Origin: Burkholderiales bacterium
Lineage (GTDB): Bacteria; Pseudomonadota; Gammaproteobacteria; Burkholderiales; SG8-39
Reading direction: 5' to 3'
NCBI GenBank assembly: GCA_036374055.1
Contig: DASUUN010000144.1
Location: forward strand, 1-42,109
Length of the DNA: 42,109 nucleotides
Shown: one piece after another, positions 7,900-41,121 of the stretch
How positions within the stretch are numbered: position 1 is the stretch's first letter
How the letters are laid out: every line of letters begins with the position of its first letter
Program-made: the position numbers and the translations under genes
The notes under the pieces: model-generated
Told to the model about the DNA's origin: nothing
What the model saw: the letters and a program-made list of their open reading frames with translations, nothing else
The model's database searches: none

Positions 7900-7909
7900 G
7901 GGACAAGCC

Positions 7910-23562: not shown

Positions 23563-24293
23563 CAGGCCGCCGCTTCGACCTGCGCCGCGAGCACGTAGCC
23601 CTCGCCCCGCACGGTCTTGATGATCTGCGGCTCGCGTGCGCCGTCGCGCAGCCGCTGCCTCAGACGGCTCACCTGGACGTCGATCGCGCGGTCGAACGGG
23701 CCGGCTTCGCGCGAGATCATGAGCTCGATCAGCTGGTCGCGGGAAAGCACCCGGTGCGGGTGCGCGAGAAAGGCCCTGAGCAGCTTGAACTCCGTTCCGC
23801 TCAACGGCACCACCACACCGTCCGGCGCAGTAAGGTTGCGAGTGGCGACGTCGAGGGTCCAGCCGGCGAAGCGGTAGGCCTTCGCCCCGTCCGGCTCAAG
23901 GTTCCCGGGCAGCGAGCGCGCACGCCTGAGCACGCTCTTGATGCGGGCTAGCAGCTCCCGCGGATTGAACGGCTTCCCGAGGTAATCGTCGGCACCCATC
24001 TCCAATCCGACGATGCGGTCCGTCTCCTCGTCCCGCGCCGTGAGCATGATGACCGGCAAATTGGAGCGGGTCCGCAGATCGCGGCACAGCTCGAGGCCGT
24101 CCTCGCCTGGAAGCATCAGGTCGAGGACGATGAGGTCCGGCCGCGCTACATCGACCGCGCGCCTCAAGGCCCTGCCATCGGCCGCGACGGTTACCCGATA
24201 GCCCTGCTTTTGCAGATACGCCCGCAAAAGGCTGCGGGTCTCTGCGTCGTCGTCGACGATCAGGATGTGGTCTTGCCCGGCCATGGCTGACAT
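23562..24293 (-). CDS. OmpR-family response regulator
   Basis: Receiver ILIVDDD...DLIVLDLMLPGEDG...MLTAR and winged-helix C-terminus LSGTEFKLLRAFLAHPHRVLSRDQL...IKTVRGEGY. The start could instead be ATG 24284. Confidence 0.9.
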   Translation of the reverse strand: MSAMAGQDHILIVDDDAETRSLLRAYLQKQGYRVTVAADGRALRRAVDVARPDLIVLDLMLPGEDGLELCRDLRTRSNLPVIMLTARDEETDRIVGLEMGADDYLGKPFNPRELLARIKSVLRRARSLPGNLEPDGAKAYRFAGWTLDVATRNLTAPDGVVVPLSGTEFKLLRAFLAHPHRVLSRDQLIELMISREAGPFDRAIDVQVSRLRQRLRDGAREPQIIKTVRGEGYVLAAQVEAAA

Positions 24294-27816: not shown

Positions 27817-28814
27817 GAGCGCCAGCGCGTCCGGTTATAGAGGTACATCGCCAGGACCGGAAGCGCGAACGAGGCGATCATCGCCGCCGCGCCCGGCGCC
27901 TCGAGCACGGGCACGTACAGCATCGGCATGACCGCCATGCCGAGCAGGACCTGCGCCAGGCACACAGTGATCAGGCTCCTTCGGCTGCGCACGAGCCGGG
28001 TCCCGCCGAGCAGCAATAGCGCCGAGGCAGCAAGACACAGCACCACCGGCACGGCGCCCCACGGGCTGCCTGCCATCCCGGGAACCGAGCGCAGGACGGC
28101 GATCACGCACGCGAGCAGCGCGATCTGCAGCGCCAGCGCGTAGGCGAGAAGGCGCGTCGAGATGGTCACCGCATCGCCGGCGCCCGGACGCGCGCCGAGC
28201 CAGATCGCGGTGGTCCGGGCGCCCTGGGCGAAGTCATTGGCGAGGTCGCGCAACGCGCCGTGGAAGCCGTTGGCCAACAGCACGTAGATGAACACGTACG
28301 CCGTCAGCCAGAAGAGCCCCGGCGCGGCGAGCGACCCGCGCCAGAGCGCGCCCACCAGCAGCAGCGCGCACCAGCCCAGCGCCTGCAATCCGTCGGTGAG
28401 GAGCGGCCAGGCGCAGCGCTTGCCGTAGAGGTCGTAGCCCGCCAGCGCTGCAAAGGCGAGCGCCAGCATGGCGAGCGCGGCCGGCGTCGCGCCGGCATAA
28501 AGCGCGAGCGAAAAAGCGAGCGGCGGCTGCAGCAGCGCAAGCCACAGCGCGCTGCGGCGGCTCAGCGTGCCCTGCACCAGCGGCGAGTCGGCGCGCAACG
28601 GCTCGCTGCGGTCCACCCAGAGGTCCGCGACGTCGTTCAGCACGTACGCGAAAACGTGGAAGGCGAGCGCGATGAACAGCAGCGGCGCGGCGTCCCGCAG
28701 CGGCAGCTCGCCCTGCGCGCCTGCCGCGCCCACGAGCGGCAGCAGCAGCGTGAAATTCAGCGCCCAGACGCGTATGACCAGGTAGAGGCTCACGAGCCAG
28801 CGCATGCCAGCCAT
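27813..28814 (-). CDS. UbiA-family prenyltransferase 1
   Basis: Polytopic. NDVADLWVDRSEPLRADSPLVQG is the first Asp-rich motif and RDLANDFAQG the second. Start is ATG 28814 or 28805, both inside the 3' end of the TIR gene. The track ORF to 30110 is an in-frame extension. Confidence 0.8.
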   Translation of the reverse strand: MAGMRWLVSLYLVIRVWALNFTLLLPLVGAAGAQGELPLRDAAPLLFIALAFHVFAYVLNDVADLWVDRSEPLRADSPLVQGTLSRRSALWLALLQPPLAFSLALYAGATPAALAMLALAFAALAGYDLYGKRCAWPLLTDGLQALGWCALLLVGALWRGSLAAPGLFWLTAYVFIYVLLANGFHGALRDLANDFAQGARTTAIWLGARPGAGDAVTISTRLLAYALALQIALLACVIAVLRSVPGMAGSPWGAVPVVLCLAASALLLLGGTRLVRSRRSLITVCLAQVLLGMAVMPMLYVPVLEAPGAAAMIASFALPVLAMYLYNRTRWRS

Positions 28815-31800
28815 TCGTCCAGCCGGAACCGGGTCTGGCGCGCCATGCGGATCGCCTGAGCGGCATAGGCGGCGATGAACTCGCGGGTGCTGCCCGCTTC
28901 GGCCATCACCTTGAGAGGAAACACGCTGAGCCCCTCCCGCATGCCGGGGCGGAACAGGCACTGGTGGACGGCATTGTTGAAGAAGCCGAGCGTCCTCATG
29001 AACTCGTCGATCAGCGCGACGTCGGTCGTCGCCACCACCTCGCGGCGCAGCGCCTCGTCCAGCTGCTCCCGCTCCATGAAGAGGTCGACCAGATCGAAGT
29101 GCAGCGTGCGCATGGTGGCGAGCACCACGGTCAGGGCCCTGCGCAGGCCGTCGTCGGCGGCGAGCGCCGCCAGGTGCGGCCGCAGCGTGTCGAGCAGCGC
29201 GTCCGGATGGTAGAAGCCTATCGGCGCGAGCATCGACAGCAGCTGCGCGCTGCGCTCCGGCTCCCGCCCTGTGGCGGCGGCGGCGGCCAGCGCCTCGAAT
29301 AACGGCATGCCCTTCCCCTGCTTGCCGTACGCAAGACCGAGCGGCACCAGCAGGAGCTGCGCGACCTTCGGCGGCCGCGCCTCCCCCACCTGGAAGCGCT
29401 CCTCCAGGCAGCGGCGCGTCATGTCCTCGAGCATGCCCGTCCAGGCAGGCGGCGTGCGGCGCAGCAGCACCGCGAAGGACATGAGCAGCCAGATGCGCCC
29501 CCGGCTGTCGAGGGCGTCGAACATGCTCCGCAGGCGCGGCTCGTGGCGCGGGAAGTCCCGGTACGCGTGGACCGCCACGGCAAGCGCAGCGGCGCCGCAA
29601 TACACGTCGACCCCGGAGCGGAAAGCGCCCGAGACGAGGGCCTCGTCGGCGAGCAGGTCGGTCCCGGGATCGAGCAGCGCAGCGATCCGCGCAAGCACCG
29701 AGCGCTCCTGCGCCGGAATGCGGAAGAACGCCGCCGCCTCCTCGGGCGTGGTCTGCAGCATCCACTCGAGGATCGGCCGGGCGAACACCGCCGCCACCCC
29801 GCTCGCCACGACCTTGTCGACGTGGCGGCCGAGGTTCATCCGATCCAGGTGCAGGCCGTTGACCGCGAGATCGTGGAACACCTCCGCGGTCTGCGCCGCG
29901 ACCTCCTCGCTGTCGCAGTGGTTGATGTACATCGTGATGCACCAGTCGAGGACGAAGCGCATGATGCGCCAGAGCTCCAGCGGCCGGCGCCAGCTCATGC
30001 GTTCCACCAGGAACTTCACCAGCTCGTGGGTGAACTTCGGCGCATGCCGCCACACGGAGTAGAGAGTGGCGGCGGCGTGCCGCGGCTGCACCTCGGCGCT
30101 GCCTATCCATATGACGTACAGGGAGTCGCGCACCGCCCGCCGCAGCGCGTCGGAGCTGCTCAGCGCGCCGCGCAGGATCAGCTCGCGGGCGGGAGGTCCG
30201 ATGCGGAACGCGGCGCGCAACGCCGTGCGCTGCCGCTGGGCCGAGCCGCTGTCGAGGAGCGCCTTGAGAATCTGCGCGGCGCGCTCGCGCTTCACTTCGT
30301 CCAGCCTCACCAGGCTGTCGCTCGCGAGCTCGCGCAGCGCCGCCTCGGGCGCGCCCGCGAGCTGCAGGTACAGCTCGAGCGAGCCCTTGTCGGACAGGCT
30401 CTTCATCACGAGCAGCGTGACCGCGGCATCCCAGGCCAGCGGGAAGCGGCCGGACTTGTGCACCAGCTCCGCGAGGAGGGCTTGCGCCGGCTCCCTGCGT
30501 TGCGCGAGCGAAGTCGCGAGCGCGTAGGCACCCACGAGCGGATAGGCGAACTTGAGCAGATCCTGGGTAAAGAGGCCCTCGCCTTTGACCTCGAGAAGCA
30601 CGCCCTGGTCGAGCAGGCGCGCATAGCTTGCGTCGGGCTGGGCCGCGTTGATGGCCGGACCGAGCACCGGATGATCGAACAGGCTCGCCACCGGCAGGGC
30701 GGCGTCTTCACGCTCGTACATCGCCTGGACCAGTGCCTGGACGAACCGTTCGTCCTCGGGGCGCTGCAGGCGCTGCTCGTAATAGCGCCGGAAGACCAGC
30801 GTATCGGGGCGTGGCAATACCCGCTGCCCGGCGCCGGGCCGATACGCGTCGGCCAGCAGGCGCAGAATCAGCGGCGAGCGCAGGCGGACGGCGAGCGTCG
30901 GCGGCAGCTCCGGCAGCGCGAACGGCAGCTCGAAGCGCGCGCGGTAGCGCTCGAACGCGGCGGCGGCCTCCTCCTCGGTAAAGGCGCCGAGCACGAGCGG
31001 CTCGCCGCCGCGGTGATAGCGCTCGCCGCTCATGGCGGGCCGGCCGACGCGGTCCAGCCGTTTCCAGGCCGGCGTGCTGCAGGTCAGGACCAGGCGCACA
31101 TTCTTTCCAGGCAGCCGGGAGACCAGCTTGTCGACGCACAGCAGCAGCTGCCTTTGCCCGTCACCGTTGCCGCCGCGGAAGTCGTTCAGGGCATCGATGA
31201 CGATGAGCACGCGCAGGCCGCCGCGGCCGGCCAGCTCGTCGAGGTAGTCGAGCGCGGGCCACAGGGCGGTCGGGTCGCCGAGGTTCAGGTCCTTCCGCAA
31301 CTCGCTCTCCATGTCGGCCGTGGTCAGCCGCTCGCCCGCGAACATGAAAACGGCATGCCGCCTGGCGGCCTGCGCCGCGGACCAATGGCACAGCAGGCTG
31401 GTCTTGCCCATGCCCATGTCGCCGAGGACCACCAGGGCCCGGGCGTCGCCCGCGAGAAACTCGTCGAGCTCGCGCTCCTCCGCGGCCCGGCTCACGTACA
31501 GCGCCGGCTCATAGACGGCGACCGCGCCCGGCCTGGGCGCGAGCGACTCGAGGAACCTCGAGCGCTGGCGCTCCGCCATGGCCGCCACATCCTCCCAGCT
31601 CGCCTGGCGGCGCAGCAGCGCCGCCTCCATGGACCGCACGCCGACGTCCTGCGGCAGGCTGCTGCGGGTGCGCTCCGGAAGGTCGTCCAGCCTCACGCCC
31701 CTGCCCTTCTCGATCCTGCGCAGCAGCTCGGCCAGGCTCGACTCGTAGAGCGCGGGATCCGTGAAATCGAGGTAGTGCCTTGCCTCGAGGTCCAGCGGAC

Positions 31801-32089
31801 GGTCGGCATCCTTCTGCACCAGCAGGGGCACCACGTACTTCTCCTTGCGCAAGGCGCGCTGCAGCTCGGCCCGACAGATGCGCGAGCCGTACGCCTCCTT
31901 CGTCAGCAGCGCGACCAGGCCGTCGCAGCGGTCGATGGCGCGCTCGATCTCGCGCGACCAGTCATCGCCTCCTTCGATCTCCGCCCGGTCCCTCCACGGC
32001 TCGTGCCGGCGATCGCGCAAGTCCGCTTCCAGCCGCTCGGCCAGCGCCGCGCCGTCGCGCCGTGCGTACGAAATGAACAGGCTAGCCAA
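28790..32089 (-). CDS. TIR domain - STAND P-loop NTPase (NACHT-like) - alpha-helical (HEAT/ARM-like) repeat protein, 1099 aa
   Basis: N-terminal bacterial TIR: SLFISYARRDG...DGLVALLTKEAYGSRICRAELQ, with a putative catalytic Glu75. Walker A GDMGMGKT at 31423-31400 and Walker B LRVLIVIDALND. The Leu/Ala-rich helical C-terminus is about 750 aa. TTG start with GAGGGAG upstream. Confidence 0.85.
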   Translation of the reverse strand: MASLFISYARRDGAALAERLEADLRDRRHEPWRDRAEIEGGDDWSREIERAIDRCDGLVALLTKEAYGSRICRAELQRALRKEKYVVPLLVQKDADRPLDLEARHYLDFTDPALYESSLAELLRRIEKGRGVRLDDLPERTRSSLPQDVGVRSMEAALLRRQASWEDVAAMAERQRSRFLESLAPRPGAVAVYEPALYVSRAAEERELDEFLAGDARALVVLGDMGMGKTSLLCHWSAAQAARRHAVFMFAGERLTTADMESELRKDLNLGDPTALWPALDYLDELAGRGGLRVLIVIDALNDFRGGNGDGQRQLLLCVDKLVSRLPGKNVRLVLTCSTPAWKRLDRVGRPAMSGERYHRGGEPLVLGAFTEEEAAAAFERYRARFELPFALPELPPTLAVRLRSPLILRLLADAYRPGAGQRVLPRPDTLVFRRYYEQRLQRPEDERFVQALVQAMYEREDAALPVASLFDHPVLGPAINAAQPDASYARLLDQGVLLEVKGEGLFTQDLLKFAYPLVGAYALATSLAQRREPAQALLAELVHKSGRFPLAWDAAVTLLVMKSLSDKGSLELYLQLAGAPEAALRELASDSLVRLDEVKRERAAQILKALLDSGSAQRQRTALRAAFRIGPPARELILRGALSSSDALRRAVRDSLYVIWIGSAEVQPRHAAATLYSVWRHAPKFTHELVKFLVERMSWRRPLELWRIMRFVLDWCITMYINHCDSEEVAAQTAEVFHDLAVNGLHLDRMNLGRHVDKVVASGVAAVFARPILEWMLQTTPEEAAAFFRIPAQERSVLARIAALLDPGTDLLADEALVSGAFRSGVDVYCGAAALAVAVHAYRDFPRHEPRLRSMFDALDSRGRIWLLMSFAVLLRRTPPAWTGMLEDMTRRCLEERFQVGEARPPKVAQLLLVPLGLAYGKQGKGMPLFEALAAAAATGREPERSAQLLSMLAPIGFYHPDALLDTLRPHLAALAADDGLRRALTVVLATMRTLHFDLVDLFMEREQLDEALRREVVATTDVALIDEFMRTLGFFNNAVHQCLFRPGMREGLSVFPLKVMAEAGSTREFIAAYAAQAIRMARQTRFRLDEWLACAGS

Positions 32090-33611
32090 ACGCCGGCTCC
32101 CTCGTCGGCTGCGCCAGCTCGCTCACGTCCTCGGCGATCCGCCCCCGGGCGTCGGTCAGCAGGGTCGGCGTGAAATGCCGCTCGTATCGGGCATCGACGC
32201 GGAACGCGGGCCGATAGACCGCGTCCAGCGCTTCGGTTCCCGCCACGTGCGTGCGGCGCGCGCGCGCCGCCCACAGCCTTCGCGCCGAAGGCGCGGTGAA
32301 CAGCGCGGGCGCGCACAGCAAGACCGCCCCGCTCAGTGCGATGAGCATCTGCGTCCGGTTCAGATGCTTGCGGTAGCGGCGGAAGAAGCGCGCGGAATGC
32401 GCCAGCACGCGCCGGCGGTAGCCGCGCAGGCACTGCAGCCCGCGGACGAACTCCGCGGCCTCGCCGAGCGCACCGAAAGGCTGCAGGCTGATCGTCGTGC
32501 CGTCCATGTCGCGAAGCGAAGTGTTGGGCAGCAACGTCCCGCCCGCCAGCGACTCCCGGAAGAAGGGCGTGCCGAGCATCGGAATGGGGATGGAGATGTA
32601 GCTCGGCAGAGTGATCTCGGCGGTGGAAGCGATGATCTCCAGCTCGGCGCGCAGGTCGGCCAGCCGGCGCTTGCCGATGTCGAACATCATGCCGTAGGTA
32701 AGCGCGATGCCGGAATCCAGGCAGCGGCGAATCAGCTCGACGGGCTGCAGCCGGGTGTTCTGGCCCTTGTTGAAGCGGCGCAGCCACTGCGTGTCGAACG
32801 ATTCCACGCCGGTAAAGAGCGCTTCGCAGCCCGCGTCCTTCGCGAGCGCGAGATTCTCCTCCTTCAGGAAGAAGTCGCCCGTGACGAGCGCCGCCCACCC
32901 CCGCAACAGCTTCTGCTCCCTGAGCTCCTTCAGCAGCCCGAGCCTGGCGATGAAGTAGTCCCGGTCGTTGCCGTAGAAATTGTTGTCGAGGAATACGACC
33001 ATTTGCCTCGGTCCTTGCGCCACGATCTGGCGCCGGATGTCGTCGAGCGCGTACTTGCCGTAGGGCTGCCGTTGCGCGGTGAGCGTGCAGAAGGAGCAGC
33101 GGAAATTGCAGTTGCGGCTGCTTTCGGCGTACCCGACGCGCCCGATCCAGGGCGCGAGATCGAAGCGCGGCCGCAGGTGGGCGGCCGCGAAGCCTTCGCC
33201 GAACGCATCGCGCACCACTTCGCGAAGCTGCTCCACGTCGCCGGAGCAGCAATAATCGAAGAACCGCGCGCATAGGGCAGGCAGCACGCGAACCAGCGGC
33301 CCGCCGGCCACGACGATGACCCGGGGATTCCTGGTCCGTGCGTAGGCCGTCACGTGCAGCATGCGATCGAACGCCGTATTCATGCCGGTGAGCACCAGCA
33401 TGTCGGGCCAGCCGAGCAGCCCCTCGTCCTCCAGCGGCCCGCTGTAGAGCTCGCTGTACACCTTGACATCCCAGCGCTCCGCCGGGAACGCGCCGGCCAG
33501 CCAGACCGGCGCCATGGCCTGCGGAATCTTGTGGGTGCGCGCGATCGACAAGCGTGTTTCGTCGAAGTAGCAATTGACGATCAGAGCACGCTTGCGCTCA
33601 CCGGCGCCCAC
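32082..33611 (-). CDS. B12-binding-domain radical SAM protein (class B rSAM-like)
   Basis: The N-terminal Rossmann-like cobalamin-binding-type region (ALIVNCYFDE...MLVLTGMNTAF...VIVVAGGP) precedes CNFRCSFC (CX3CX2C, 33110-33087). GTG start with GAGGA upstream. Its stop overlaps the TIR gene's start. Confidence 0.8.
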   Translation of the reverse strand: MGAGERKRALIVNCYFDETRLSIARTHKIPQAMAPVWLAGAFPAERWDVKVYSELYSGPLEDEGLLGWPDMLVLTGMNTAFDRMLHVTAYARTRNPRVIVVAGGPLVRVLPALCARFFDYCCSGDVEQLREVVRDAFGEGFAAAHLRPRFDLAPWIGRVGYAESSRNCNFRCSFCTLTAQRQPYGKYALDDIRRQIVAQGPRQMVVFLDNNFYGNDRDYFIARLGLLKELREQKLLRGWAALVTGDFFLKEENLALAKDAGCEALFTGVESFDTQWLRRFNKGQNTRLQPVELIRRCLDSGIALTYGMMFDIGKRRLADLRAELEIIASTAEITLPSYISIPIPMLGTPFFRESLAGGTLLPNTSLRDMDGTTISLQPFGALGEAAEFVRGLQCLRGYRRRVLAHSARFFRRYRKHLNRTQMLIALSGAVLLCAPALFTAPSARRLWAARARRTHVAGTEALDAVYRPAFRVDARYERHFTPTLLTDARGRIAEDVSELAQPTREPAFG

Positions 33612-34562: not shown

Positions 34563-34678
34563 AGGATAGCACCGAGCTCATCCGTGTCCGGCAGTCGGCC
34601 AAGCGGCACAAGCTCACCTTGGCCATCTGCGCGCTGCTGGTCATCGTGGGGTTCGTCGGCTGGCTGACGACTCTCTAG
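34559..34678 (+). CDS. Possible 39-aa single-TM small protein translationally coupled to the TauD-like gene
   Basis: ATGA overlap with the TauD stop. Translation is MKDSTELIRVRQSAKRHKLTLAICALLVIVGFVGWLTTL. 36 of 39 third positions are G/C, and it has a basic N-terminus plus one hydrophobic helix. It is below the ORF-track size cut-off. Confidence 0.45.
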   Translation: MKDSTELIRVRQSAKRHKLTLAICALLVIVGFVGWLTTL

Positions 34679-35922
34679 AGGGCGGAGTTCGCGGCGGCCG
34701 AGCGGTCCCACAGCGCCCGCCGCCAGCGGTAGCCGATCCAGACCGTCGCCGCCAGGCCAAGGCCGGCGTAGATCAGCGTGCACGCCGCGTAGCCGAGCCG
34801 CTCGATGATCGGCCCGGCCGCAAGCAGCCCCAGCGGCAGCCCCCAGATGGCGAGCATGCGGATGCCCATGACGGAGCCGCGCATCTCTTCGCTCGATGAG
34901 CGCAGCATGACGGCGGCGAGCGGCGTGAGGCAGAAGCTCTGCACGAATCCCGAAGCGAACAGCAGCACGAGGCCGGGCCCCATGGACCCGGTCTGGCCGA
35001 AAAGCAGGATGGTCACGAACCACGCCGCCGCGGTCCAGAGCATGACGCGCGCGGCCGGCAGCGGCACCCGGTTGGCGCCCACGGCCAGCGAGCCGGCGAG
35101 CGCGCCCGACCAGAAGGCCATGGCAAGGTAGCCCAGCCCCGCCTGCCCGACCCCGTAGACGTCCTTCGCCACGAAGGGCAGCAGGCCGAGGAAGAAAGGG
35201 AAAGCGAGCAGGTTGACGAGGAACGCGATGCCGAACGCGCCGAGCAGATCGGGCTTGTCCCGCACATAGCGGACGGCCTTCATCAGGCTGGCCAGCGTAT
35301 CGGCGTGGGCCTGGCTTTTCGCGGGCGCCGCCACGCCGAGCGACAAAACGAACGCGGCCACGTACATCGCGGTGACCACGGCGTAGGCCGGACCCATGCC
35401 GATGAGCGCCACGCCGCCGGTGCCCGCCAGCGCGCCCACGATCCTTGCCGTGTCCGAGGTCGTCCGCGAGATGGCGAGCGCGCCGATCAGCGCGTCGGGC
35501 CGCATGGTCTGCGCCACCAGGACATGGCGCATGGCCATGTCGGAGGGCCGCAGCAGGCCGGCAAGGGCGGAGACCACGAACACGTGCCATGGAACGAGCG
35601 CGCCGCTCAATGTCAGCACCGCGAGCACGCCCGCGAGAAGCGCATAGAGCGCCCGCGTGGCGCACAGCAGGGGGCGAACGCCGATCCGGTCGCCCACGAT
35701 GCCCAGCCACGGCGAGAAAAGCGTTCCGACCCACGCCAGCGCCGCGATGAGCACGAGGTACTGGACCGAGCCGGTCGCGACGAGCACGTACCATCCGAGG
35801 ATCAGCGCCTCCATCTCGAAGGCCCAGGACGTAGCGAGGTCCGCCGGCCACTGGAACCGGAAGCTGCGCACGCTGAACGGGGCAAGAGCCGGGGCGCGGC
35901 CCCCTGGGGACGGCGATGTCAT
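34675..35922 (-). CDS. MFS transporter
   Basis: ATG 35922 lies 11 nt after the upstream stop. About 12 hydrophobic segments and the loop motif GIVGDRIGVRP (MFS motif A-like). Confidence 0.85.
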   Translation of the reverse strand: MTSPSPGGRAPALAPFSVRSFRFQWPADLATSWAFEMEALILGWYVLVATGSVQYLVLIAALAWVGTLFSPWLGIVGDRIGVRPLLCATRALYALLAGVLAVLTLSGALVPWHVFVVSALAGLLRPSDMAMRHVLVAQTMRPDALIGALAISRTTSDTARIVGALAGTGGVALIGMGPAYAVVTAMYVAAFVLSLGVAAPAKSQAHADTLASLMKAVRYVRDKPDLLGAFGIAFLVNLLAFPFFLGLLPFVAKDVYGVGQAGLGYLAMAFWSGALAGSLAVGANRVPLPAARVMLWTAAAWFVTILLFGQTGSMGPGLVLLFASGFVQSFCLTPLAAVMLRSSSEEMRGSVMGIRMLAIWGLPLGLLAAGPIIERLGYAACTLIYAGLGLAATVWIGYRWRRALWDRSAAANSAL

Positions 35923-35932
35923 CGGTCGATCC

Positions 35933-37054
35933 CTAACGTCGATTGCGCGCGCAGCGGAACCCCACGTCCTCGCCGCGATTTTTCGGGTGGGCGTAGAACC
36001 GCCGGCTCGCGGTGATGCGATCCGCGGGGTCGCGCCAGCCTCCGCCGCGGATCGTCCTGCTGACGTTTTCGTCGTACCAGTCGGCCACCCATTCGGCGCT
36101 GTTGCCCGCCAGGTCATGGATACCGAACGGGCTCGCGCCGGCCGGATGGCTGGCCACGGGCTTGAGCCCGCCTTGGTACGCGCCCGGCGCGCTGTTCCCG
36201 AAGTTCGCCTGGACGGGAGTGGGCGGCGAGTCGCCCCACGGATACTTGCGCGCGTCCGTGCCGCGCGCCGCCTTCTCCCATTCGGCCTCCGACGGCAGGC
36301 GCTTTCCTGCCCATACGCAGTAGGCGCTTGCGTCGTGCCAGTCCACGCCGATCACGGGAAGGCTCGCGTCTTTGGCGAGATCGAGCGCCTCCCAGCCGTC
36401 GGGAAGCCGGACCGAGCCGGTCGCCTCGACGAACTTTCCGTACTGCGAAACCGTGACCTCGTGCCGGTCGAGGCGGAAGGCGTCCAGGTAGACCTCGCGT
36501 TGCGGCGAGTTCTCGTTATCGCCCATCGTGAAGGTCCCGGCGGGAACGAGCACCATGTCCGCCCCCTCCCCGCCTTGGCGGGTCGCAAGCCAGGCGCCGG
36601 TCGCGATCAAGCCTGCCAGCAGCGGCACGGCCGCCTTTATCACCCAGGACCGCCGGCGCTGCCGGCCTATCCGGTGCACCGTGTGCGCCACGGTAGCCGG
36701 GACATTGCCCTCCGGCTGAAGGAAGGTGACCGACTTGAGGAAAGGCGAGATCGAGTCGAGCGGCGTTGGACGCAGCAGCACGGGCAGGAGCTTGCGCGCG
36801 GGATGCTTCCACGTCTTCTCGGCGATCTCCGCCTCCGTCAGCGTGTAGCTGCCGGCATCCAGCGCTTCGGGGCTGATGAGGAACACCAGCAGATCGGTCT
36901 GCTCGATGGCGCGCCGTATCCGGGCGTGGTATTCCTCTCCCGGAGGCAGGTCGTCGCGGTCGAAGAATACGTCGTCGCCCTGCGCGCGCAGCGCGAGCTC
37001 GATGGCCCGCGCCGTGGCGCGGTCCTCGGATGCGTAGCTGAGGAATACCTTCAT
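35933..37054 (-). CDS. TIR domain - single TM helix - FGE-sulfatase (SUMF1/formylglycine-generating-enzyme-like) domain protein
   Basis: N-terminus KVFLSYASEDR...DLLVFLISPEALDAGSYTLTEAEI is a bacterial TIR. RQRRRSW precedes the hydrophobic VIKAAVPLLAGLIATGAWLA. The C-terminus shows MVLVPAGTFTMGDN...HEVTVSQY...GKRLPSEAEWEKAARG...HDLAGNSAEWVADW...GFRCAR, which is an FGE-sulfatase domain. Confidence 0.85.
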   Translation of the reverse strand: MKVFLSYASEDRATARAIELALRAQGDDVFFDRDDLPPGEEYHARIRRAIEQTDLLVFLISPEALDAGSYTLTEAEIAEKTWKHPARKLLPVLLRPTPLDSISPFLKSVTFLQPEGNVPATVAHTVHRIGRQRRRSWVIKAAVPLLAGLIATGAWLATRQGGEGADMVLVPAGTFTMGDNENSPQREVYLDAFRLDRHEVTVSQYGKFVEATGSVRLPDGWEALDLAKDASLPVIGVDWHDASAYCVWAGKRLPSEAEWEKAARGTDARKYPWGDSPPTPVQANFGNSAPGAYQGGLKPVASHPAGASPFGIHDLAGNSAEWVADWYDENVSRTIRGGGWRDPADRITASRRFYAHPKNRGEDVGFRCARNRR

Positions 37055-37068
37055 CGGAAGGCGACATT

Positions 37069-37731
37069 ATGGCCGTCACTGTGCTTAGCTCGCTCGCCCT
37101 GAAAGGGGTGCTCGAGAGGTTGCGCCCGGCGTTCGAGCGGGCTCTCGGTCCGCTGGAGCTGCATTTCGACGCGACGCAGGCGATCGTGCCACGGGTGGGC
37201 CGGGGCGAGCCCGCCGACCTCCTGATCCTCACCCGGGAAGCGATGGACGAGCTGCGCTCGAGCGGCGCCGTCACGCAGGCGTGGCTCCTGGGCAGCTCCG
37301 GGGTCGGCGTGGCGGTGCGCGCAGGCGCGCCCCGGCCCGATATCAGCTCCGTCGACGCGCTGCAGCGCGCGCTTCTATCGGCGCGGTCGGTCGCCCATTC
37401 GAAAGTCGGCGCAAGCGGCATCTACTTCTCCGAGCTTCTGGACCGGCTCGGTATCAGGTTGAAAAAGCGCATCGTGGTGGAAAAGGGGCCGGTCGGCATT
37501 GCCGTGGCGACCGGCGAAGCGGAGCTGGGCGTGCAGCAGTTGTGCGAGCTCGCGCCCGTCCCGGGGATCGAGATCGTCGGGCCGCTCCCCGAGCCGGTCC
37601 AGAAGCTGACGTACTTTTCGGCGGGCATCCCAGCCGGCGCAGCCGATGCCGCGGGCGCCCGCGCCCTCGTCGAGCTGCTGCGCGCGGACGCAGCGCGCGC
37701 CGAAATGATCCAGGGGGGTCTGCAGCCCTAG
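37069..37731 (+). CDS. ModA-like type 2 substrate-binding-fold protein without signal peptide
   Basis: VTVLSSLALKGVLERLRPAFE...ADLLILT...GVGVAVRAGAP resembles molybdate/tungstate-binding family proteins. There is no N-terminal signal. GGAAGG lies 7 nt upstream of the ATG. Confidence 0.65.
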   Translation: MAVTVLSSLALKGVLERLRPAFERALGPLELHFDATQAIVPRVGRGEPADLLILTREAMDELRSSGAVTQAWLLGSSGVGVAVRAGAPRPDISSVDALQRALLSARSVAHSKVGASGIYFSELLDRLGIRLKKRIVVEKGPVGIAVATGEAELGVQQLCELAPVPGIEIVGPLPEPVQKLTYFSAGIPAGAADAAGARALVELLRADAARAEMIQGGLQP

Positions 37732-38618: not shown

Positions 38619-39548
38619 CTAAACGGTGCCCACCACGTTGCGCAGCACGCCGATTTTCTCCATTTCGCACTCGATGACGTCGCCGGGCTTGAGGTAGCCC
38701 TTCGCGGGCACCAGGGTCTCGCTGCCGTCGCCGCCCACCCATTTGCCGCCGAGCTCGGGGTCGGTGGACCAGGCGGTGCCGCCGGGGGTGCCGGTGATGA
38801 TGATGGTCCCCGGCTGCAGCGTCATGTTGGCGGAGAAGAAGTGGATGAGGTGCGCGCAGGAGAAGATCATGCTGCCGGTGGAGGCCGACTGGCGCAGCTC
38901 GCCGTTGATGCGCGTGCGCAGCCGCAGCGCCTGCGGATCGGAAATCTCGTCGGCGGTGACGATCCACGGCCCGGTGGGCCCGGAGGTCTCGAAGCACTTG
39001 CTGCGGCCGAGCTCGTACCAGGTGAAGCCCTGCTCGTTCCTGCGCACCTGGCGATCGCGCGCGGTGACGTCGTTGACGATGGTATAGCCGAACACGTGCT
39101 CCAGGGCCCGCTCCACCGGGATGTGGCGCCCGGGCTTGCCGATCACCACCGCGAGCTCGGTTTCGGCGTCGAGCTTCTTCGTCAGGCGCTCGTCGTAGAT
39201 GATCTTGTCGCCGTGGCCGATCACGCAGTCGGCGGTCTTGACGAAGAACTCCGGCTCCTTGCCCGAGATCGGCGTGTTCGCCTTCTCCTTGTTGTGGTCC
39301 CGGTAGTTGCTGCCGCTGCACAGCATGGTGGCCGGGCGGATGGGCGGCGCAAGCTTCACCGACGAGAGCGCCCGGCGCGCCGTGGCGGGCGCCTTGGCGA
39401 GGTATGCCTCCGCGGCGCGCCGGCCCTCGGCGCCCGACTCGATGAACGCCTTCATGTCCTTCATCTCCGGCGGCGCATCGACCACATCGTCGCCGACGAT
39501 GAAGCCCAACCGCTCGCTGCCGCCGGCGACGTACGTGGCTACCTTCAT
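38619..39548 (-). CDS. Fumarylacetoacetate hydrolase (FAH) family protein
   Basis: GSNYRDH, ELAVVIG, GYTIVNDVTARD and GTIIITGTPGG are FAH-family motifs. ATGA overlap with the upstream Bug gene. Confidence 0.85.
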   Translation of the reverse strand: MKVATYVAGGSERLGFIVGDDVVDAPPEMKDMKAFIESGAEGRRAAEAYLAKAPATARRALSSVKLAPPIRPATMLCSGSNYRDHNKEKANTPISGKEPEFFVKTADCVIGHGDKIIYDERLTKKLDAETELAVVIGKPGRHIPVERALEHVFGYTIVNDVTARDRQVRRNEQGFTWYELGRSKCFETSGPTGPWIVTADEISDPQALRLRTRINGELRQSASTGSMIFSCAHLIHFFSANMTLQPGTIIITGTPGGTAWSTDPELGGKWVGGDGSETLVPAKGYLKPGDVIECEMEKIGVLRNVVGTV

Positions 39549-40501
39549 TGAGTCTTGCCCATCTTGCGCACCACCTGGGCCAGGCGCTCGCCGTCCGCCT
39601 TGACGAAGGCGGCGAACTCCGGGGCGTCCTGGTACTGGATCGGCGTGTTCACGTTGGCCATCGCCTTCTGGAAGTCCGGGTCGTTCACGGCGCTGCGCAC
39701 CGCTTCGCGCAGCTTGGCGGCGACCTCGGGCGCGAGCCCCGCTGGCGCGAATACCCCGGCCCAGATGTAGAACTCGGCATCCAGCCCGCGCTCCTTGAGG
39801 GTCGGGATGTCCGCGATCTGCGGCAGGCGCTTGGCGCCCCAGGAAGCGAGCGCGCGCACCTTGCCGCCCTTTATGTGGGGGTGCGCGACGGCCGGCGATT
39901 GCGCCGTGACGTGCACTTCGCCCGACAGCAGCGCGAGCATCGAGGGTCCGCCGCCCTTGTACGGCACGTGCAGCATGTTGATGCCCGCCGCCTGGGTGAA
40001 CATCGCCTGGCAGGTGTGCGTGGTGCCGTAGATGCCGGAGGTGCTGTAGCTGATCTTGCCCGGGCGCTTTTTCGCGTCGGCGATCAGGTCCTCGATGGTC
40101 TTCCAGGGGCTGTCGGCGCGCACCAGCAGCACCGTCGGGTCGGCGGCGATGCGCGCGATGGGCGTGAAATCCGACATCCGGTAGGTCGGCTGGCGCCCGT
40201 TTACCTCCTCGGCGGTGGGGATCACCGTGATCGAGGAGAGCGCGTTCATGATGCTGTAGCCGTCGGCCGCCTGCCGCGCGGCGTGCGCATGGCCGACGGC
40301 GCCGCCCGCGCCCGCCTTGTTCTCGATCACGATGGGCTGGCCGAGCGCCTTCGACATGGCTGCGGCGAGCGGGCGGCCGGTGATGTCGGCGATGCCCCCC
40401 GGCGGGAAGGGCACGATCATGGTGATCGGCCGGCTGGGATAGGTTTGCGCCTGCGCCAGCGCGCAGATCGCCGCAAGTGCCAAAGCAGTGATCAGTCTCA
40501 T
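39545..40501 (-). CDS. Tripartite tricarboxylate transporter substrate-binding protein (Bug/TctC family)
   Basis: ATG 40501 is preceded by GGAGGAG. Signal MRLITALALAAICALAQAQ, then YPSRPITMIVPFPPGGIADITGR...ENKAGAGG, the Bug-family hallmark. Confidence 0.9.
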   Translation of the reverse strand: MRLITALALAAICALAQAQTYPSRPITMIVPFPPGGIADITGRPLAAAMSKALGQPIVIENKAGAGGAVGHAHAARQAADGYSIMNALSSITVIPTAEEVNGRQPTYRMSDFTPIARIAADPTVLLVRADSPWKTIEDLIADAKKRPGKISYSTSGIYGTTHTCQAMFTQAAGINMLHVPYKGGGPSMLALLSGEVHVTAQSPAVAHPHIKGGKVRALASWGAKRLPQIADIPTLKERGLDAEFYIWAGVFAPAGLAPEVAAKLREAVRSAVNDPDFQKAMANVNTPIQYQDAPEFAAFVKADGERLAQVVRKMGKTQ

Positions 40502-40527
40502 CGGTACACTCCTCCTCGTTCGTTTGA

Positions 40528-41121
40528 TTATGCGGCGTGCTTGCCCGGCTGCCACCCCTGTTTCGCGAGGTAGCGCTCGCCGACCTCGGTCGGCTCCTCC
40601 TCCAGCGGCGTCGCCATGGTGTCGTTCCAGCGGTTCATGAAGCCGAACAGCGAGATGACGCCCACGATCTCCACCATCTGCCCGTCGCTCCAGTGCCGGC
40701 GCATGGCGGCGAACATCTCGTCGGTGACATCGTTGGGCACCGAGCCGGCGGCGAGCGCGAAGTCGAGCGCCAGGCGCTCGGCTTCGCTGTAAAGCGGGCT
40801 GGAGCGGTAGTCCCAAAGCGCGTCGAGCTTCTTCTCGTCCACGCCGAGCTTCGCCGCGCCGCCCACGGTATGCGCCATGCAGTACCGGCAGCCGGCCGCG
40901 CGGCTGGCGAAATGCGCCAGCAGCCGCTTGAAGCCGCGGTCCACCGCGCTTTCGGGATCCCATACCGCGGCGGCAAGCTGCGCCAGCGCCTGCACCATCT
41001 TGGGCCGGCGCTGCATGATGAGCACGCTGTTGGGGATGAAGCCGAGCGACTTCTCGTACTGCGCGAAAGCCGCGCTCAGGCTGGGATCGGCGTCCGCGGG
41101 CAATGGCGCAAGTCGGGGCAC
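40528..41121 (-). CDS. Carboxymuconolactone decarboxylase (AhpD-like) family / peroxidase-related protein
   Basis: 197 aa. SRAAGCRYCMAHT is a CxxC motif in the AhpD-like fold context. First gene of the CMD-Bug-FAH operon. Confidence 0.75.
   Translation of the reverse strand: MPRLAPLPADADPSLSAAFAQYEKSLGFIPNSVLIMQRRPKMVQALAQLAAAVWDPESAVDRGFKRLLAHFASRAAGCRYCMAHTVGGAAKLGVDEKKLDALWDYRSSPLYSEAERLALDFALAAGSVPNDVTDEMFAAMRRHWSDGQMVEIVGVISLFGFMNRWNDTMATPLEEEPTEVGERYLAKQGWQPGKHAA

What the first reader, a model, noticed from the sequence alone, without database searches (positions are those of the whole stretch)
35933..37054. Toll-receptor-like topology in a bacterium: cytoplasmic TIR, one TM helix, periplasmic FGE-sulfatase (C-type-lectin-fold) domain
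The translation shows three parts.
- An N-terminal TIR: FLSYASEDR...LLVFLISPEAL..GSYTLTEAEI.
- A positive patch RQRRRSW, then a 20-residue hydrophobic helix (aa 137-157).
- A complete FGE-sulfatase/SUMF1-type domain (aa 166-373).

By the positive-inside rule, the TIR is cytoplasmic and the FGE-like domain periplasmic. The protein would then be an outside-in sensor with a TIR output. That is the same logic as eukaryotic TLRs, but with a different ectodomain.

FGE-sulfatase domains fused to kinases or caspase-like proteases are thought to act as ligand-binding modules. A TIR fusion next to an MFS transporter (11-nt gap, probably co-transcribed) has, as far as I know, not been functionally described.
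Basis: partly seen in the sequence, partly recalled or inferred. Interest (0 to 1): 0.72.

Follow-up and report, generated by a model that had tools for sequence, protein, structure and literature searches.

The report
Membrane TIR protein with periplasmic sensor
This is a real, conserved bacterial gene that joins a cytoplasmic TIR domain, through one membrane helix, to a non-enzymatic FGE-type (lectin-fold) binding domain in the periplasm; the design is common in soil metagenomes but untested, and it may be an outside-in immune or stress receptor.

Summary
ORF 35933-37054 (-) encodes 373 aa:
- TIR_2, aa 3-101 (E 3.7e-19).
- One hydrophobic helix, aa 138-156, preceded by RQRRR.
- FGE-sulfatase domain, aa 165-370 (E 5.4e-50).

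Charge bias predicts the TIR inside and the FGE domain outside. The nearest FGE-only relatives carry signal peptides, which agrees. The TIR keeps an invariant Glu (E74) at the catalytic position of NADase TIRs. The FGE domain lacks FGE's two catalytic cysteines, so it is a binding module and the database name "nonheme iron enzyme" does not fit.

Both domains are under purifying selection (dN/dS about 0.23).

The architecture is not rare. At least 120 protein clusters and 55 complete metagenome genes share it, across several phyla. It is one branch of a larger TIR-TM-X family (419 representatives) with many different ectodomains.

No partner gene is conserved. The MFS linkage holds only in the closest lineage. 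I found no paper describing the family.

Best reading (about 0.4): a self-contained sensor in which periplasmic ligand binding clusters the protein and switches on TIR NAD+ cleavage. "Toll-like" is an analogy only: the polarity is inverted and the ectodomain differs.

Verdict: new variant of a known kind, moderately interesting.

The parts
35933..37054 (-). Whole gene, 373 aa: TIR, one TM helix, FGE-like domain.
   Evidence: ORF list. Pfam. 121-member family alignment. dN/dS 0.23 against a 93%-identical homologue.
36704..37054 (-). TIR domain core (aa 1-117), predicted cytoplasmic.
   Evidence: TIR_2 E 3.7e-19. AF2 TIR-only model has pLDDT 89. Foldseek TM-scores of 0.72-0.83 to SPARTA TIR-APAZ, AbTir, SARM1, TLR1 and TLR15.
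36938..36961 (-). BB-loop D32-G39 (DRDDLPPG). D32, R33, L36 and G39 are invariant. It resembles box 2 of receptor TIRs.
   Evidence: Invariant columns. The profile alignment puts D-L-P-P-G on D-F-K-P-G of TLR15 and N-F-V-P-G of TLR6. It is the lowest-pLDDT block of the TIR, 68.
36833..36835 (-). Codon GAG for E74, the candidate catalytic glutamate (Y70-T71-L72-T73-E74 = W-x-x-x-E position).
   Evidence: Invariant in 121/121 and in the 143 TIR-TM-X representatives. Aligned to the W-C-x-Y-E glutamate of TLR6 and TLR15. It lies in helix 70-81, which follows strand 55-60 after a short loop.
36647..36703 (-). Last TIR helix and juxtamembrane basic patch (aa 118-136, ...HRIGRQRRRS).
   Evidence: AF2 predicts one continuous helix, 118-160, running from the TIR into the membrane segment. 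R133-R135 are nearly invariant.
36581..36646 (-). Single transmembrane helix (aa 137-158, WVIKAAVPLLAGLIATGAWLAT).
   Evidence: KD 1.77 for aa 138-156. The position is conserved but the sequence is not (pairwise identity 0.29 against 0.66 for both soluble domains). Positive-inside bias holds in 98% of members.
35945..36562 (-). FGE-sulfatase / C-type-lectin-fold domain (aa 165-370), predicted periplasmic and non-catalytic.
   Evidence: PF03781 E 5.4e-50. Foldseek hits include CalU17, ToxD, pFGE, FGE and PvdO, E 1e-19 to 1e-13. No Cys at the FGE active-site loop.
36317..36319 (-). Codon for C246. With C368 it is one of only two Cys in the ectodomain, and both are invariant.
   Evidence: Cys census of 121 members. 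Whether the two form a disulfide could not be checked because no model coordinates were available.
35951..35953 (-). Codon for C368 in the terminal GFRCA motif, invariant.
34675..35922 (-). Downstream MFS_3/MFS_1 transporter, 10 nt after the stop. The linkage is lineage-specific and is probably not part of the system.
   Evidence: Pfam. The same junction occurs in L081, L095 and L096. It is absent from all more distant homologues.
37069..37731 (+). Divergent SBP_bac_11 gene. Its start codon is only 14 nt from the TIR gene's start codon.
   Evidence: The same 14-nt spacing occurs in L095 and L096.

Best explanation
The gene encodes a self-contained, type-II single-pass inner-membrane protein. 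The N-terminal TIR domain sits in the cytoplasm. Its last helix runs straight into the membrane helix. A compact, non-catalytic FGE-type (C-type-lectin-fold) domain sits just outside the membrane in the periplasm.

Proposed mechanism:
1. The periplasmic domain binds a ligand. That ligand is still unknown and appears to be conserved; candidates are an envelope-derived or invader-derived molecule.
2. Binding clusters or re-orients the receptors.
3. Clustering brings the TIR domains into the head-to-tail assemblies that TIR enzymes need.
4. The TIR then cleaves NAD+. This either depletes NAD+ and arrests growth, or produces an ADPR-derived signal.

What is shown: the domain identities, the conservation pattern, purifying selection on both domains, the absence of FGE catalytic residues and the absence of a conserved partner gene.

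What is inferred: the topology, ligand binding, oligomerisation, NADase activity and the biological role.
For: - **Domains.** TIR_2 and FGE-sulfatase are both well above the Pfam cut-offs.
- **Topology.** There is a single hydrophobic segment with positive-inside bias in 98% of 121 homologues. The nearest FGE-only relatives (45-48% identity, Nitrospira and others) start with signal-type hydrophobic segments or a lipobox. Chloroflexi Ser/Thr kinases show the same cytoplasmic-domain/TM/FGE order.
- **Catalytic position.** E74 is invariant in 121/121 family members and in all 143 TIR-TM-X representatives. It aligns with the W-C-x-x-E glutamate of TLR6 and TLR15. From published SARM1 and plant/bacterial TIR work, recalled from memory, this is the position of the catalytic Glu of NADase TIRs.
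- **TIR fold.** Foldseek TM-scores are 0.72-0.83 to AbTir, SPARTA, SARM1 and TLRs.
- **Coupling.** AF2 predicts a continuous helix, 118-160, linking the TIR to the TM segment.
- **Ectodomain is not an enzyme of the FGE type.** It has no active-site Cys pair. The fold is used as a binding scaffold elsewhere: the Tsi3 immunity protein (doi 10.1101/2021.05.21.445229), sensors of conflict systems and STAND proteins (PMC7159879, PMC13581612), and DGR variable proteins (PMC10907252).
- **Selection.** Both domains are equally conserved (0.66 pairwise identity) and under purifying selection (dN/dS 0.24 and 0.21).
- **Modularity.** The same TIR+TM cassette heads proteins with many different C-terminal tails, a receptor-like pattern.
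- **Autonomy.** No conserved neighbour exists, so the protein must act alone or with unlinked partners.
Against: - Nothing here is experimental. Topology, ligand binding and NADase activity are all inferred.
- The conserved Glu is necessary but not sufficient. TLR TIRs keep it and are scaffolds rather than NADases.
- The aromatic residue four positions before the Glu is Tyr, not the usual Trp.
- The gene does not sit consistently in defence islands. Among 104 neighbours there are 105 Pfam families with no enrichment, and only scattered PADLOC hits.
- The ectodomain is not hypervariable and has no DGR. That pattern is unlike a typical arms-race sensor and points to a conserved ligand, and possibly to a physiological rather than an immune role.
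- FGE-fold proteins without the Cys pair include members of biosynthetic pathways or named enzymes (PvdO, ToxD, CalU17), so an enzymatic ectodomain is not excluded.
Confidence: 0.4

Rival explanations
1. Scaffold receptor. The TIR is not an enzyme. Like TLR TIRs, it recruits other TIR proteins after periplasmic ligand binding. In this window the candidate partner is the TIR-STAND NTPase encoded 3.8 kb away.
For: - The TIR profile finds metazoan receptor-type TIRs first: oyster TIR-STING 1.8e-8, Hydra TRR-2, TLR15/6/1.
- The BB loop is box-2-like, with D-L-P-P-G aligned on the D-F-x-P-G part of the TLR box 2. PMC7075850 says this motif is usually absent from prokaryotic TIRs.
- A second TIR protein (TIR_2 + NACHT/nSTAND1, 1099 aa) lies at 28790-32089.
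- TIR_2 neighbours occur in 2 of 104 surveyed neighbours.
Against: - TIR neighbours are rare and are absent from most contexts.
- The two TIRs in the window are only weakly similar: 30% identity over 76 aa, E 0.006.
- The E-value differences between metazoan and bacterial TIR hits are small.
- From general knowledge, characterised bacterial TIRs act enzymatically.
Confidence: 0.12
2. Membrane-tethered periplasmic enzyme or maturation factor. The FGE-fold domain carries out chemistry or chaperoning in the periplasm, in the manner of PvdO, ToxD or CalU17. The TIR only regulates or oligomerises it.
For: - The best structural matches are FGE-fold proteins from biosynthetic pathways or named enzymes: CalU17 1.1e-19, ToxD 7.8e-18, PvdO 1.9e-13.
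- NCBIfam finds partial hits to PvdO, EgtB and SenA.
- The ectodomain is strongly and evenly conserved.
- Public annotation calls it a "SUMF1/EgtB/PvdO family nonheme iron enzyme".
Against: - No FGE Cys pair is present.
- There is no DinB-type N-terminal domain, which (from memory) supplies the iron ligands of EgtB/OvoA. The N-terminus here is a TIR.
- All NCBIfam hits are far below their cut-offs, for example PvdO 48 bits against 500.
- No biosynthetic partner genes are conserved nearby.
- This reading does not explain why E74 is invariant, or why the same TIR-TM cassette is joined to unrelated tails.
Confidence: 0.12
3. Inside-out device or anchor. The TIR responds to a cytoplasmic cue, such as infection or a nucleotide signal. 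The membrane helix and ectodomain merely localise it at the envelope or act on the envelope.
For: - About 30 of 149 relatives of the TIR-TM cassette have multi-pass membrane tails rather than folded ectodomains. These look more like membrane effectors.
- Four representatives hit the CAP12/Pycsar effector TIR model.
Against: - The FGE ectodomain is as conserved as the TIR and is under equal purifying selection. That is more than a passive anchor needs.
- No cyclase or other signal-producing partner is conserved nearby.
Confidence: 0.08

Closest known systems
Animal Toll-like / IL-1 receptors
   Same: Both are single-pass membrane proteins with a cytoplasmic TIR and an extracytoplasmic ligand-binding domain. 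The BB loop has the P-G motif, and the conserved Glu lies in the same helix.
   Different: - The polarity is inverted: here the TIR is N-terminal and the ectodomain C-terminal.
- The ectodomain is FGE/C-type-lectin fold, not LRR or Ig.
- No box 3 was noted.
- No MyD88-type adaptor is known.
- The output is probably enzymatic.
- The sequence similarity is weak (E 1e-5 to 1e-8), and no common descent of the architecture is shown.
Bacterial TIR NADase effectors fused to a sensor (TIR-STING, TIR-SAVED, SpbK, AbTir, SPARTA TIR-APAZ)
   Same: Both have a TIR with the catalytic-position Glu and a fused sensor domain, and could plausibly be activated by oligomerisation. The best PADLOC hit is a SAVED_TIR model (2.4e-13, TIR part only). 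Foldseek TM-scores reach 0.8.
   Different: Those proteins are cytoplasmic and sense nucleotides, nucleic acids or phage proteins inside the cell. This protein is membrane-anchored with the putative sensor in the periplasm. It matches no full-length PADLOC model.
FGS/FGE-sulfatase (C-lectin fold) sensor domains of NTP-dependent conflict systems and STAND proteins (PMC7159879, PMC10907252, PMC13581612)
   Same: The FGE-fold domain lies at the C-terminus, with effector domains including TIR always N-terminal to it. It is proposed to act as a direct binder of invader molecules.
   Different: Those systems pair the FGS domain with vWA/MoxR or STAND NTPase partners, and many are DGR-diversified. 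Here there is no NTPase, vWA or DGR. A membrane helix places the domain outside the cytoplasm.
Ser/Thr kinase-TM-FGE and caspase-TM-FGE proteins (bioRxiv 10.1101/2025.01.12.632604; PMC3501461)
   Same: They share the type-II layout: cytoplasmic signalling or effector domain, TM helix, C-terminal FGE domain. The FGE domains are 39% identical to this one in loci L035 and L056.
   Different: The output domain is a kinase or a peptidase rather than a TIR. None of these has a known ligand either.
Tsi3 FGE-like T6SS immunity proteins (doi 10.1101/2021.05.21.445229)
   Same: Both use an FGE-fold domain as a protein-binding module rather than as an enzyme.
   Different: Tsi3 is not described as carrying a TIR output domain and is encoded next to its cognate effector. 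No effector gene is linked here.
Formylglycine-generating enzyme (SUMF1) and EgtB/OvoA sulfoxide synthases
   Same: They share the Pfam domain and fold. Conserved structural motifs include GN-x-x-EW and the terminal GFRCA.
   Different: The two catalytic Cys of FGE are missing. The DinB-type iron-binding domain of EgtB/OvoA is also missing. The public name "nonheme iron enzyme" is therefore not justified for this protein.

Membership tests
TIR domain superfamily (Pfam TIR_2 PF13676) | Score above the curated cut-off, and a flavodoxin-like beta-alpha fold. | tested here: met
   69.8 bits against a cut-off of 28. The AF2 model shows five strands alternating with helices and has Foldseek TM-scores of 0.72-0.83 to solved TIRs.
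NADase-type TIR enzymes | A glutamate at the catalytic position, in the helix after the third strand (the W-x-x-x-E motif). | tested here: met
   E74 is invariant and aligns with the W-C-x-Y-E glutamate of TLR6 and TLR15. The aromatic residue is Tyr rather than Trp. Equivalence to SARM1 E642 rests on a by-eye alignment with a sequence recalled from memory, because the HMM alignment stopped at residue 67.
NADase-type TIR enzymes | Measured NAD+ cleavage that depends on oligomerisation. | not testable with these tools
   This needs an enzyme assay. TLR TIRs carry the same Glu without this activity, so the sequence alone cannot decide.
FGE-sulfatase domain family (Pfam PF03781) | Score above the cut-off, with full-length coverage of the model. 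| tested here: met
   170.9 bits against a cut-off of 23.3, profile positions 3-255 of 255. Foldseek E-values of 1e-19 to 1e-13 to FGE-fold structures.
True formylglycine-generating enzyme (SUMF1) | Two active-site cysteines (human C336/C341) in the C-terminal loop. | tested here: not met
   The query and all 121 family members have only C246 and C368. There is no Cys between them in the stretch that corresponds to the human ...GGSYMCHRSYC... loop.
EgtB/OvoA/SenA sulfoxide or selenoxide synthases | An N-terminal DinB-like iron-binding domain, plus a score above the NCBIfam equivalog cut-off. | tested here: not met
   Only the C-terminal FGE part matches: EgtB 74.5 bits against 360, SenA 77.8 against 420. 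The N-terminus is a TIR.
PvdO | NCBIfam equivalog score, and a pyoverdine gene context. | tested here: not met
   48.1 bits against a cut-off of 500. No pyoverdine genes are among the scanned neighbours or the other window genes scanned.
Toll-like receptors | An N-terminal LRR ectodomain, a TM helix, and a C-terminal TIR with boxes 1-3. | tested here: not met
   The domain order is reversed and the ectodomain is FGE-fold. Only box 1 and a box-2-like motif are recognisable.
Thoeris (ThsB TIR + ThsA effector) | An adjacent ThsA-type effector (SIR2/Macro-SLOG), and a ThsB model match. | tested here: not met
   ThsB models match only weakly (E 9e-5 and worse). No ThsA-like neighbour is in the window. 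None of the 25 commonest families listed for the 104 surveyed neighbours is ThsA-like.
DGR-diversified C-lectin/FGE variable proteins | A template repeat matching the 3' end of the gene, plus a nearby reverse transcriptase. | tested here: not met
   Self-BLAST of the 3' part of the gene finds only itself, both in the window and in L091, which has an RVT_1 gene nearby. The ectodomain is not hypervariable.
VMAP / iSTAND ternary conflict systems with FGS effectors (PMC7159879) | Linked MoxR ATPase and vWA component, or a STAND NTPase in the same protein or operon. | tested here: not met
   None is in the protein. None is among the called neighbours of the homologues examined or among the 25 commonest families listed for the 104 surveyed neighbours.
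Type-II single-pass membrane protein (N-in, C-out) | One TM helix, positive-inside charge bias, no cleavable signal peptide, and experimentally mapped termini. | tested here: inconclusive
   The sequence criteria are met, and secreted relatives support an outside location for the FGE domain. No dedicated topology predictor was available, and no experiment was possible.

The most novel reading that the evidence does not exclude
Bacteria possess a large, previously undescribed family of type-II single-pass "TIR receptors". A constant cytoplasmic TIR plus TM cassette, with an invariant catalytic-position Glu and a TLR-like BB loop, is joined to interchangeable periplasmic ligand-binding domains. 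These include FGE/lectin fold, carboxypeptidase-regulatory-like, Sel1/TPR and amidase_2 domains, and many with no Pfam match.

These proteins would sense events outside the cytoplasm, such as phage adsorption or injection, competitor toxins, or envelope damage. They would transmit the signal by ligand-induced TIR clustering. That would make them a prokaryotic counterpart of Toll/IL-1 receptor signalling, with an NADase output.
Probability: 0.3. Interest if true: 0.8.

Novelty: new variant of a known kind. Interest (0 to 1): 0.58.

Why it matters
To my knowledge, most bacterial immune sensors characterised so far detect cues inside the cell. TIR domains are the shared currency of bacterial, plant and animal immunity.

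A TIR wired to a periplasmic binding domain would show that bacteria can couple TIR activation to events at or outside the inner membrane. It would also give an experimentally simple system for asking how ligand-induced clustering across a membrane turns on a TIR: one gene, one helix, two well-understood folds.

Two practical points follow. It corrects a widespread database name, since these proteins are not FGE, EgtB or PvdO enzymes. It also points to a much larger TIR-TM-X family whose ectodomains have mostly no Pfam match.

Tried and rejected
- **Conserved operon partner.** I examined 10 homologue contexts from called genes. I then added 104 non-redundant neighbours from 80 metagenome loci, scanned with Pfam and PADLOC. 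No partner emerged. The commonest family was NMT1, 5 of 104.
- **MFS as a functional partner.** The linkage is conserved only in the 93% and 77% identity relatives.
- **DGR diversification.** No template repeat exists in the window or next to the RT-containing locus L091.
- **Known defence systems.** PADLOC gives only partial TIR hits.
- **Plasmid or phage carriage.** PLSDB has FGE-only hits below 40% identity and no full-length homologue. INPHARED has no hit to the TIR-TM part.
- **Species-representative genomes.** The scan picked patterns in the FGE domain. It returned mostly FGE-only proteins and only 4 full-length loci, all MAGs.
- **Direct HMM alignment of the TIR to SARM1.** Using a sequence from memory, the alignment stopped at residue 67 because of SARM1's insertion before the catalytic helix. 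E74 = E642 therefore rests on the TLR alignments and a by-eye alignment.
- **Finding the Amidase_2-bearing family member.** A T7 lysozyme query failed to find it.
- **C246-C368 disulfide.** I could not check whether the two Cys are within disulfide distance, because model coordinates are not exposed.
- **Promoters.** The scan found no sigma-70-like site around the gene.
- **Literature.** Six searches found no paper on TIR-TM-FGE.
Full report

Yes. The window holds an ORF at 35933..37054 on the minus strand, 373 aa. Its ATG is the first start after an in-frame stop, and homologues begin at the same M-K-[IV]-F-L-S-Y.

Pfam gives three matches:
- TIR_2: aa 3-101, E 3.7e-19, 69.8 bits (cut-off 28).
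- TIR: E 2.7e-5.
- FGE-sulfatase: aa 165-370, covering profile positions 3-255 of 255, E 5.4e-50, 170.9 bits (cut-off 23.3).

Between them lies a single hydrophobic stretch, aa 138-156, with a Kyte-Doolittle mean of 1.77. It follows RQRRRS directly. No other 19-mer exceeds 1.1.

Some details need correcting. The gap to the next gene is 10 nt, not 11. The FGE domain is compact and has lost a 15-aa loop that most relatives keep.

Codon usage matches the neighbours (GC3 0.86). Against a 93%-identical homologue dN/dS is 0.23, with 0.24 for the TIR and 0.21 for the FGE domain. This is a functional gene, not a chance ORF or a decaying fusion.

**2. Anatomy**

AlphaFold2 with a 121-sequence alignment gives mean pLDDT 86.8. 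The model has three parts:
- A canonical TIR: strands 2-6, 28-30, 55-60 and 89-93, with intervening helices.
- One long helix, 118-160, that runs without a break from the last TIR helix through the basic patch into the membrane segment.
- After a short low-confidence linker (160-166), the FGE-fold domain.

A TIR-only model (pLDDT 89) superposes on several solved TIRs with TM-scores of 0.72-0.83: SPARTA TIR-APAZ, AbTir, SARM1, TLR1, TLR15, Hydra TRR-2 and TIR-STING. The whole model's best matches are FGE-fold proteins: CalU17, ToxD, pFGE, FGE, EgtB and PvdO.

**3. Topology**

I had no dedicated predictor, so I used the family.
- In 121 full-length homologues the hydrophobic segment keeps its position but not its sequence. 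Pairwise identity is 0.29 there, against 0.66 for each soluble domain.
- The 15 residues before the segment carry on average 5.1 K+R, against 1.9 after it. N>C holds in 98% of members.
- There is no N-terminal signal peptide; the TIR starts at residue 2.
- The FGE domains most similar to this one (45-48% identity) belong to Nitrospira and other proteins that begin with signal-type hydrophobic segments or a lipobox.
- Chloroflexi Ser/Thr kinases show the same order: cytoplasmic domain, TM helix, C-terminal FGE.

All of this predicts TIR inside and FGE domain outside. It remains a prediction.

**4. Are the domains catalytically competent?**

*TIR.* G68, S69, Y70, T71 and E74 are invariant in the first 20-member alignment, and S69, Y70, T71 and E74 in all 121 members. 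E74 is also invariant across 143 representatives of the wider TIR-TM family.

A profile of the TIR aligns Y70-T71-x-x-E74 with W-C-x-Y-E of TLR6 and TLR15. By published work on SARM1 and plant and bacterial TIRs (my knowledge, not a tool result), this is the position of the catalytic glutamate.

Two caveats apply. TLRs keep this Glu without being NADases. The usual Trp is a Tyr here.

The BB loop (D32-G39, DRDDLPPG) is highly conserved. It aligns with D-F-K-P-G of TLR15 and N-F-V-P-G of TLR6, the P-G part of the TLR box 2. A survey of TIR diversity says box 2 is typically absent from prokaryotic TIRs (PMC7075850).

Consistent with this, the profile's best solved-structure hits are metazoan: oyster TIR-STING 1.8e-8, Hydra TRR-2, TLR15/6/1. 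Bacterial TIRs follow closely behind. I do not read descent into such small differences.

*FGE domain.* Only two cysteines exist, C246 and C368, and both are invariant. None lies in the loop that in human FGE carries the catalytic pair.

The NCBIfam equivalogs all score far below their cut-offs and match only the C-terminal part: GldK, SenA, EgtB, PvdO and OvoA. The DinB-type domain that (from memory) supplies the iron ligands of EgtB/OvoA is absent.

The public names are therefore not supported. These are "SUMF1/EgtB/PvdO family nonheme iron enzyme" and [quoted passage not shown]. The domain is best seen as a binding scaffold, as shown for the Tsi3 immunity protein (doi 10.1101/2021.05.21.445229) and proposed for conflict-system and STAND sensors (PMC7159879, PMC13581612).

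Within the ectodomain, three stretches are the least conserved: aa 221-230, 281-290 and 341-360. By my by-eye alignment, the last corresponds to FGE's active-site loop. From memory, it also corresponds to the variable region of DGR proteins. It is therefore a candidate ligand-contact surface. This is inference.

**5. How common is it, and where?**

The architecture is not rare.
- The 120 best hits in a 5.8-billion-protein collection are all full-length TIR_2+FGE proteins of 368-457 aa at 54-93% identity. Where named, they come from Casimicrobiaceae, Burkholderiales, Betaproteobacteria, Gemmatimonadaceae/Gemmatimonas and Candidatus Binatia MAGs.
- A metagenome scan with a TIR-only profile found 258 contigs encoding a relative. 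Of the 80 kept, I could complete TIR-TM-FGE genes on contigs with GC from 0.52 to 0.70.
- Among species-representative genomes, only four full-length loci surfaced, all MAGs. That scan used FGE-domain patterns.
- There is no full-length homologue on PLSDB plasmids and none in phage records.

The family thus lives mainly in uncultured soil and sediment bacteria of several phyla. About 58% identity between Burkholderiales and Gemmatimonadota members implies horizontal transfer.

Two related contigs carry the gene at different positions relative to the same PhoPQ_related and HSP20 genes (L090 against L093). This shows that it moves.

**6. Genomic context**

The window's arrangement is a divergent SBP_bac_11 gene with its start 14 nt away, then TIR-FGE, then a 10-nt gap, then MFS_3.

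This arrangement is kept in an identical contig and in the 93% and 77% identical relatives. It is absent from every more distant homologue examined.

Those sit next to a varied set of genes:
- patatin and a PKS;
- a transposase;
- an arsenic island and tpiA-secG-nuo;
- a resolvase, DUF4062, trypsin and eCIS cluster;
- Imm8 and a STAND-like ATPase;
- a reverse transcriptase and an ABC transporter;
- catalase;
- HSP20;
- Hcp, TPR and patatin.

A broader survey of 104 non-redundant neighbours gave 105 Pfam families. None recurs in more than 5 neighbours, and PADLOC hits are only scattered.

The protein therefore has no obligate linked partner, and the MFS link is most likely lineage-specific. Equally, it is not reliably embedded in defence islands, which weakens any guilt-by-association argument for immunity.

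**7. A larger family**

Searching 1.84 billion representatives with aa 1-160 (TIR plus TM) returned 419 proteins at E<=1e-30 and 1795 at E<=1e-10. Many align over residues 1 to about 155 at 45-60% identity, yet they range from 146 to 629 aa.

Of 133 scanned, all have TIR_2 but only 11 have FGE-sulfatase. Others carry CarboxypepD_reg (4), Sel1, Amidase_2, Big_6, TPR, DUF4019 or DUF7019. Most tails have no Pfam match.

By my hydrophobicity count, 72 of 149 have a single helix at aa 120-175 followed by 43-465 residues. About 30 have multi-pass tails. Inspected examples include helical-repeat tails of about 480 aa and tails of about 610 aa.

A constant TIR-TM cassette joined to interchangeable extracytoplasmic modules is the pattern expected of a receptor family. 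The TIR-FGE protein is one branch of it.

**8. Mechanism**

My best-supported reading is a self-contained transmembrane sensor-effector. The periplasmic FGE-fold domain binds a ligand. Binding clusters or re-orients neighbouring molecules through the rigid helix. The TIR domains then form the assemblies needed for NAD+ cleavage, causing NAD+ depletion or release of an ADPR-derived signal.

The shown steps are domain identity, conservation, selection, loss of FGE catalytic residues, modularity and lack of a partner. The inferred steps are topology, ligand binding, clustering, NADase activity and purpose.

Two features point to a conserved ligand rather than a fast-evolving phage protein. The ectodomain is as conserved as the TIR, and it is not DGR-diversified. 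Envelope damage, a cell-wall fragment or a widespread foreign molecule are all candidates. I put this reading at about 0.4.

The rivals are:
- a non-enzymatic scaffold TIR that recruits other TIR proteins (0.12);
- a membrane-tethered periplasmic enzyme or maturation factor (0.12);
- an inside-out device or anchor (0.08).

The remainder is unassigned.

**9. Comparison with what is known**

In logic it resembles Toll/IL-1 receptors, but it is not a member. The order of domains is inverted and the ectodomain is unrelated.

It belongs to the TIR and FGE-sulfatase superfamilies by their Pfam criteria. It fails the defining tests for true FGE, EgtB/OvoA, PvdO, Thoeris, DGR targets and the VMAP/iSTAND ternary systems (see the membership table).

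The closest described ideas are:
- FGS/FGE sensors fused C-terminally to effectors, including TIR, in conflict systems (PMC7159879, PMC10907252);
- kinase- or caspase-TM-FGE proteins (bioRxiv 10.1101/2025.01.12.632604; PMC3501461).

Six literature searches found no paper that describes or tests the TIR-TM-FGE architecture. The held library is incomplete, so prior mention elsewhere cannot be excluded.

**10. Verdict**

This is a new variant of a known kind: a sensor-fused bacterial TIR in which the sensor is placed outside the cytoplasm.

It is common but uncharacterised, and it is mis-named in databases. Interest is 0.58. A specialist would find the outside-in TIR idea and the breadth of the TIR-TM-X family worth testing. 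Against that, nothing is shown experimentally, the gene lacks a defence-island signature, and the Toll analogy is only architectural.

Noticed in passing
window 28790-32089 (-), with 32082-33611 (-): A second TIR protein lies 3.8 kb downstream of the TIR-FGE gene. It is 1099 aa: TIR_2 (E 1.2e-24), then a NACHT/nSTAND1-like NTPase (Avs2-type hits in PADLOC), then a long C-terminal region with no Pfam match. Its TTG start overlaps by 8 nt the stop of a B12-binding radical SAM gene. The two TIRs are only weakly similar (30% over 76 aa)..
   Followed up: partly
proteins P0121-P0269; examples P0135, P0137, P0140, P0145, P0150, P0171: The TIR+TM cassette of this protein (aa 1 to about 155, 45-60% identity, invariant E74) heads a large family: 419 representatives at E<=1e-30. 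Their C-terminal tails differ widely. Only 11 of 133 are FGE. Others are CarboxypepD_reg, Sel1, Amidase_2, Big_6, TPR or multi-pass membrane regions, and most have no Pfam match..
   Followed up: partly
proteins P0122 (2023 aa), P0124 (2208 aa), P0131, P0139, P0144, P0146, P0243: These giant proteins contain 5-7 tandem copies of a TIR related to this one (about 30% identity per copy). I did not examine them further.
   Followed up: no
window 37055-37068; also L095 1352-1365 and L096 511-524: The start codons of the TIR gene and the divergent SBP_bac_11 gene are only 14 nt apart, and the spacing is conserved in relatives. No sigma-70-like promoter was found. Each promoter must therefore lie inside the other gene, or the mRNAs are leaderless. 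By eye, the solute-binding-type protein has no obvious signal peptide (sequence; Pfam).
   Followed up: partly
window 36047-36073 (about aa 328-336), and the linker after the TM helix (36560-36580): The window protein and its two closest relatives (P0001, P0002) lack a 15-aa loop (consensus F-x-x-x-DVRNPKGPESGT-x-K) that the other family members aligned in A1 retain. They also have a shorter TM-to-FGE linker. The sub-lineage is still under purifying selection..
   Followed up: partly
L090 against L093: Two related contigs share sCache, AAA ATPase, PhoPQ_related and HSP20 genes but carry the TIR-FGE gene at different positions. This is direct evidence that the gene relocates..
   Followed up: partly
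L082-L085 9265/9334-10197; L094 3030-4217: A patatin-like phospholipase gene lies immediately downstream of the Casimicrobiaceae homologue P0004 and a few kb upstream of P0093. Patatin occurs in 2 of 104 surveyed neighbours. This may be an occasional effector partner or a coincidence..
   Followed up: partly
L103-L121 and L130 (contigs with GC 0.53-0.57): In one lower-GC lineage, my ORF calls repeatedly show a divergent ORF of 105-109 aa about 240-320 nt upstream of the TIR-FGE gene. Its identity was not determined.
   Followed up: no
window 5932-7899 (+) and 7868-9106 (+): A Sulfatase-family (PF00884) protein of 655 aa has its Sulfatase match at aa 271-555, and a BNR-repeat protein sits next to it. 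It is 28 kb from the TIR-FGE gene. Because the FGE-like domain lacks the catalytic cysteines, no sulfatase-maturation link is expected.
   Followed up: no
window 22156-24293 (-), 39545-40573 (-): The surrounding genes are ordinary chromosomal ones: a HAMP histidine kinase with an OmpR-type regulator, a TctC/Bug-family binding protein, a FAA hydrolase, TauD, luciferase-like monooxygenase, and branched-chain amino-acid ABC transporter parts. GC is 62-72%. The nearest named homologue of the TIR-FGE protein is from Casimicrobiaceae. This fits a Burkholderiales-like betaproteobacterium (inference)..
   Followed up: no
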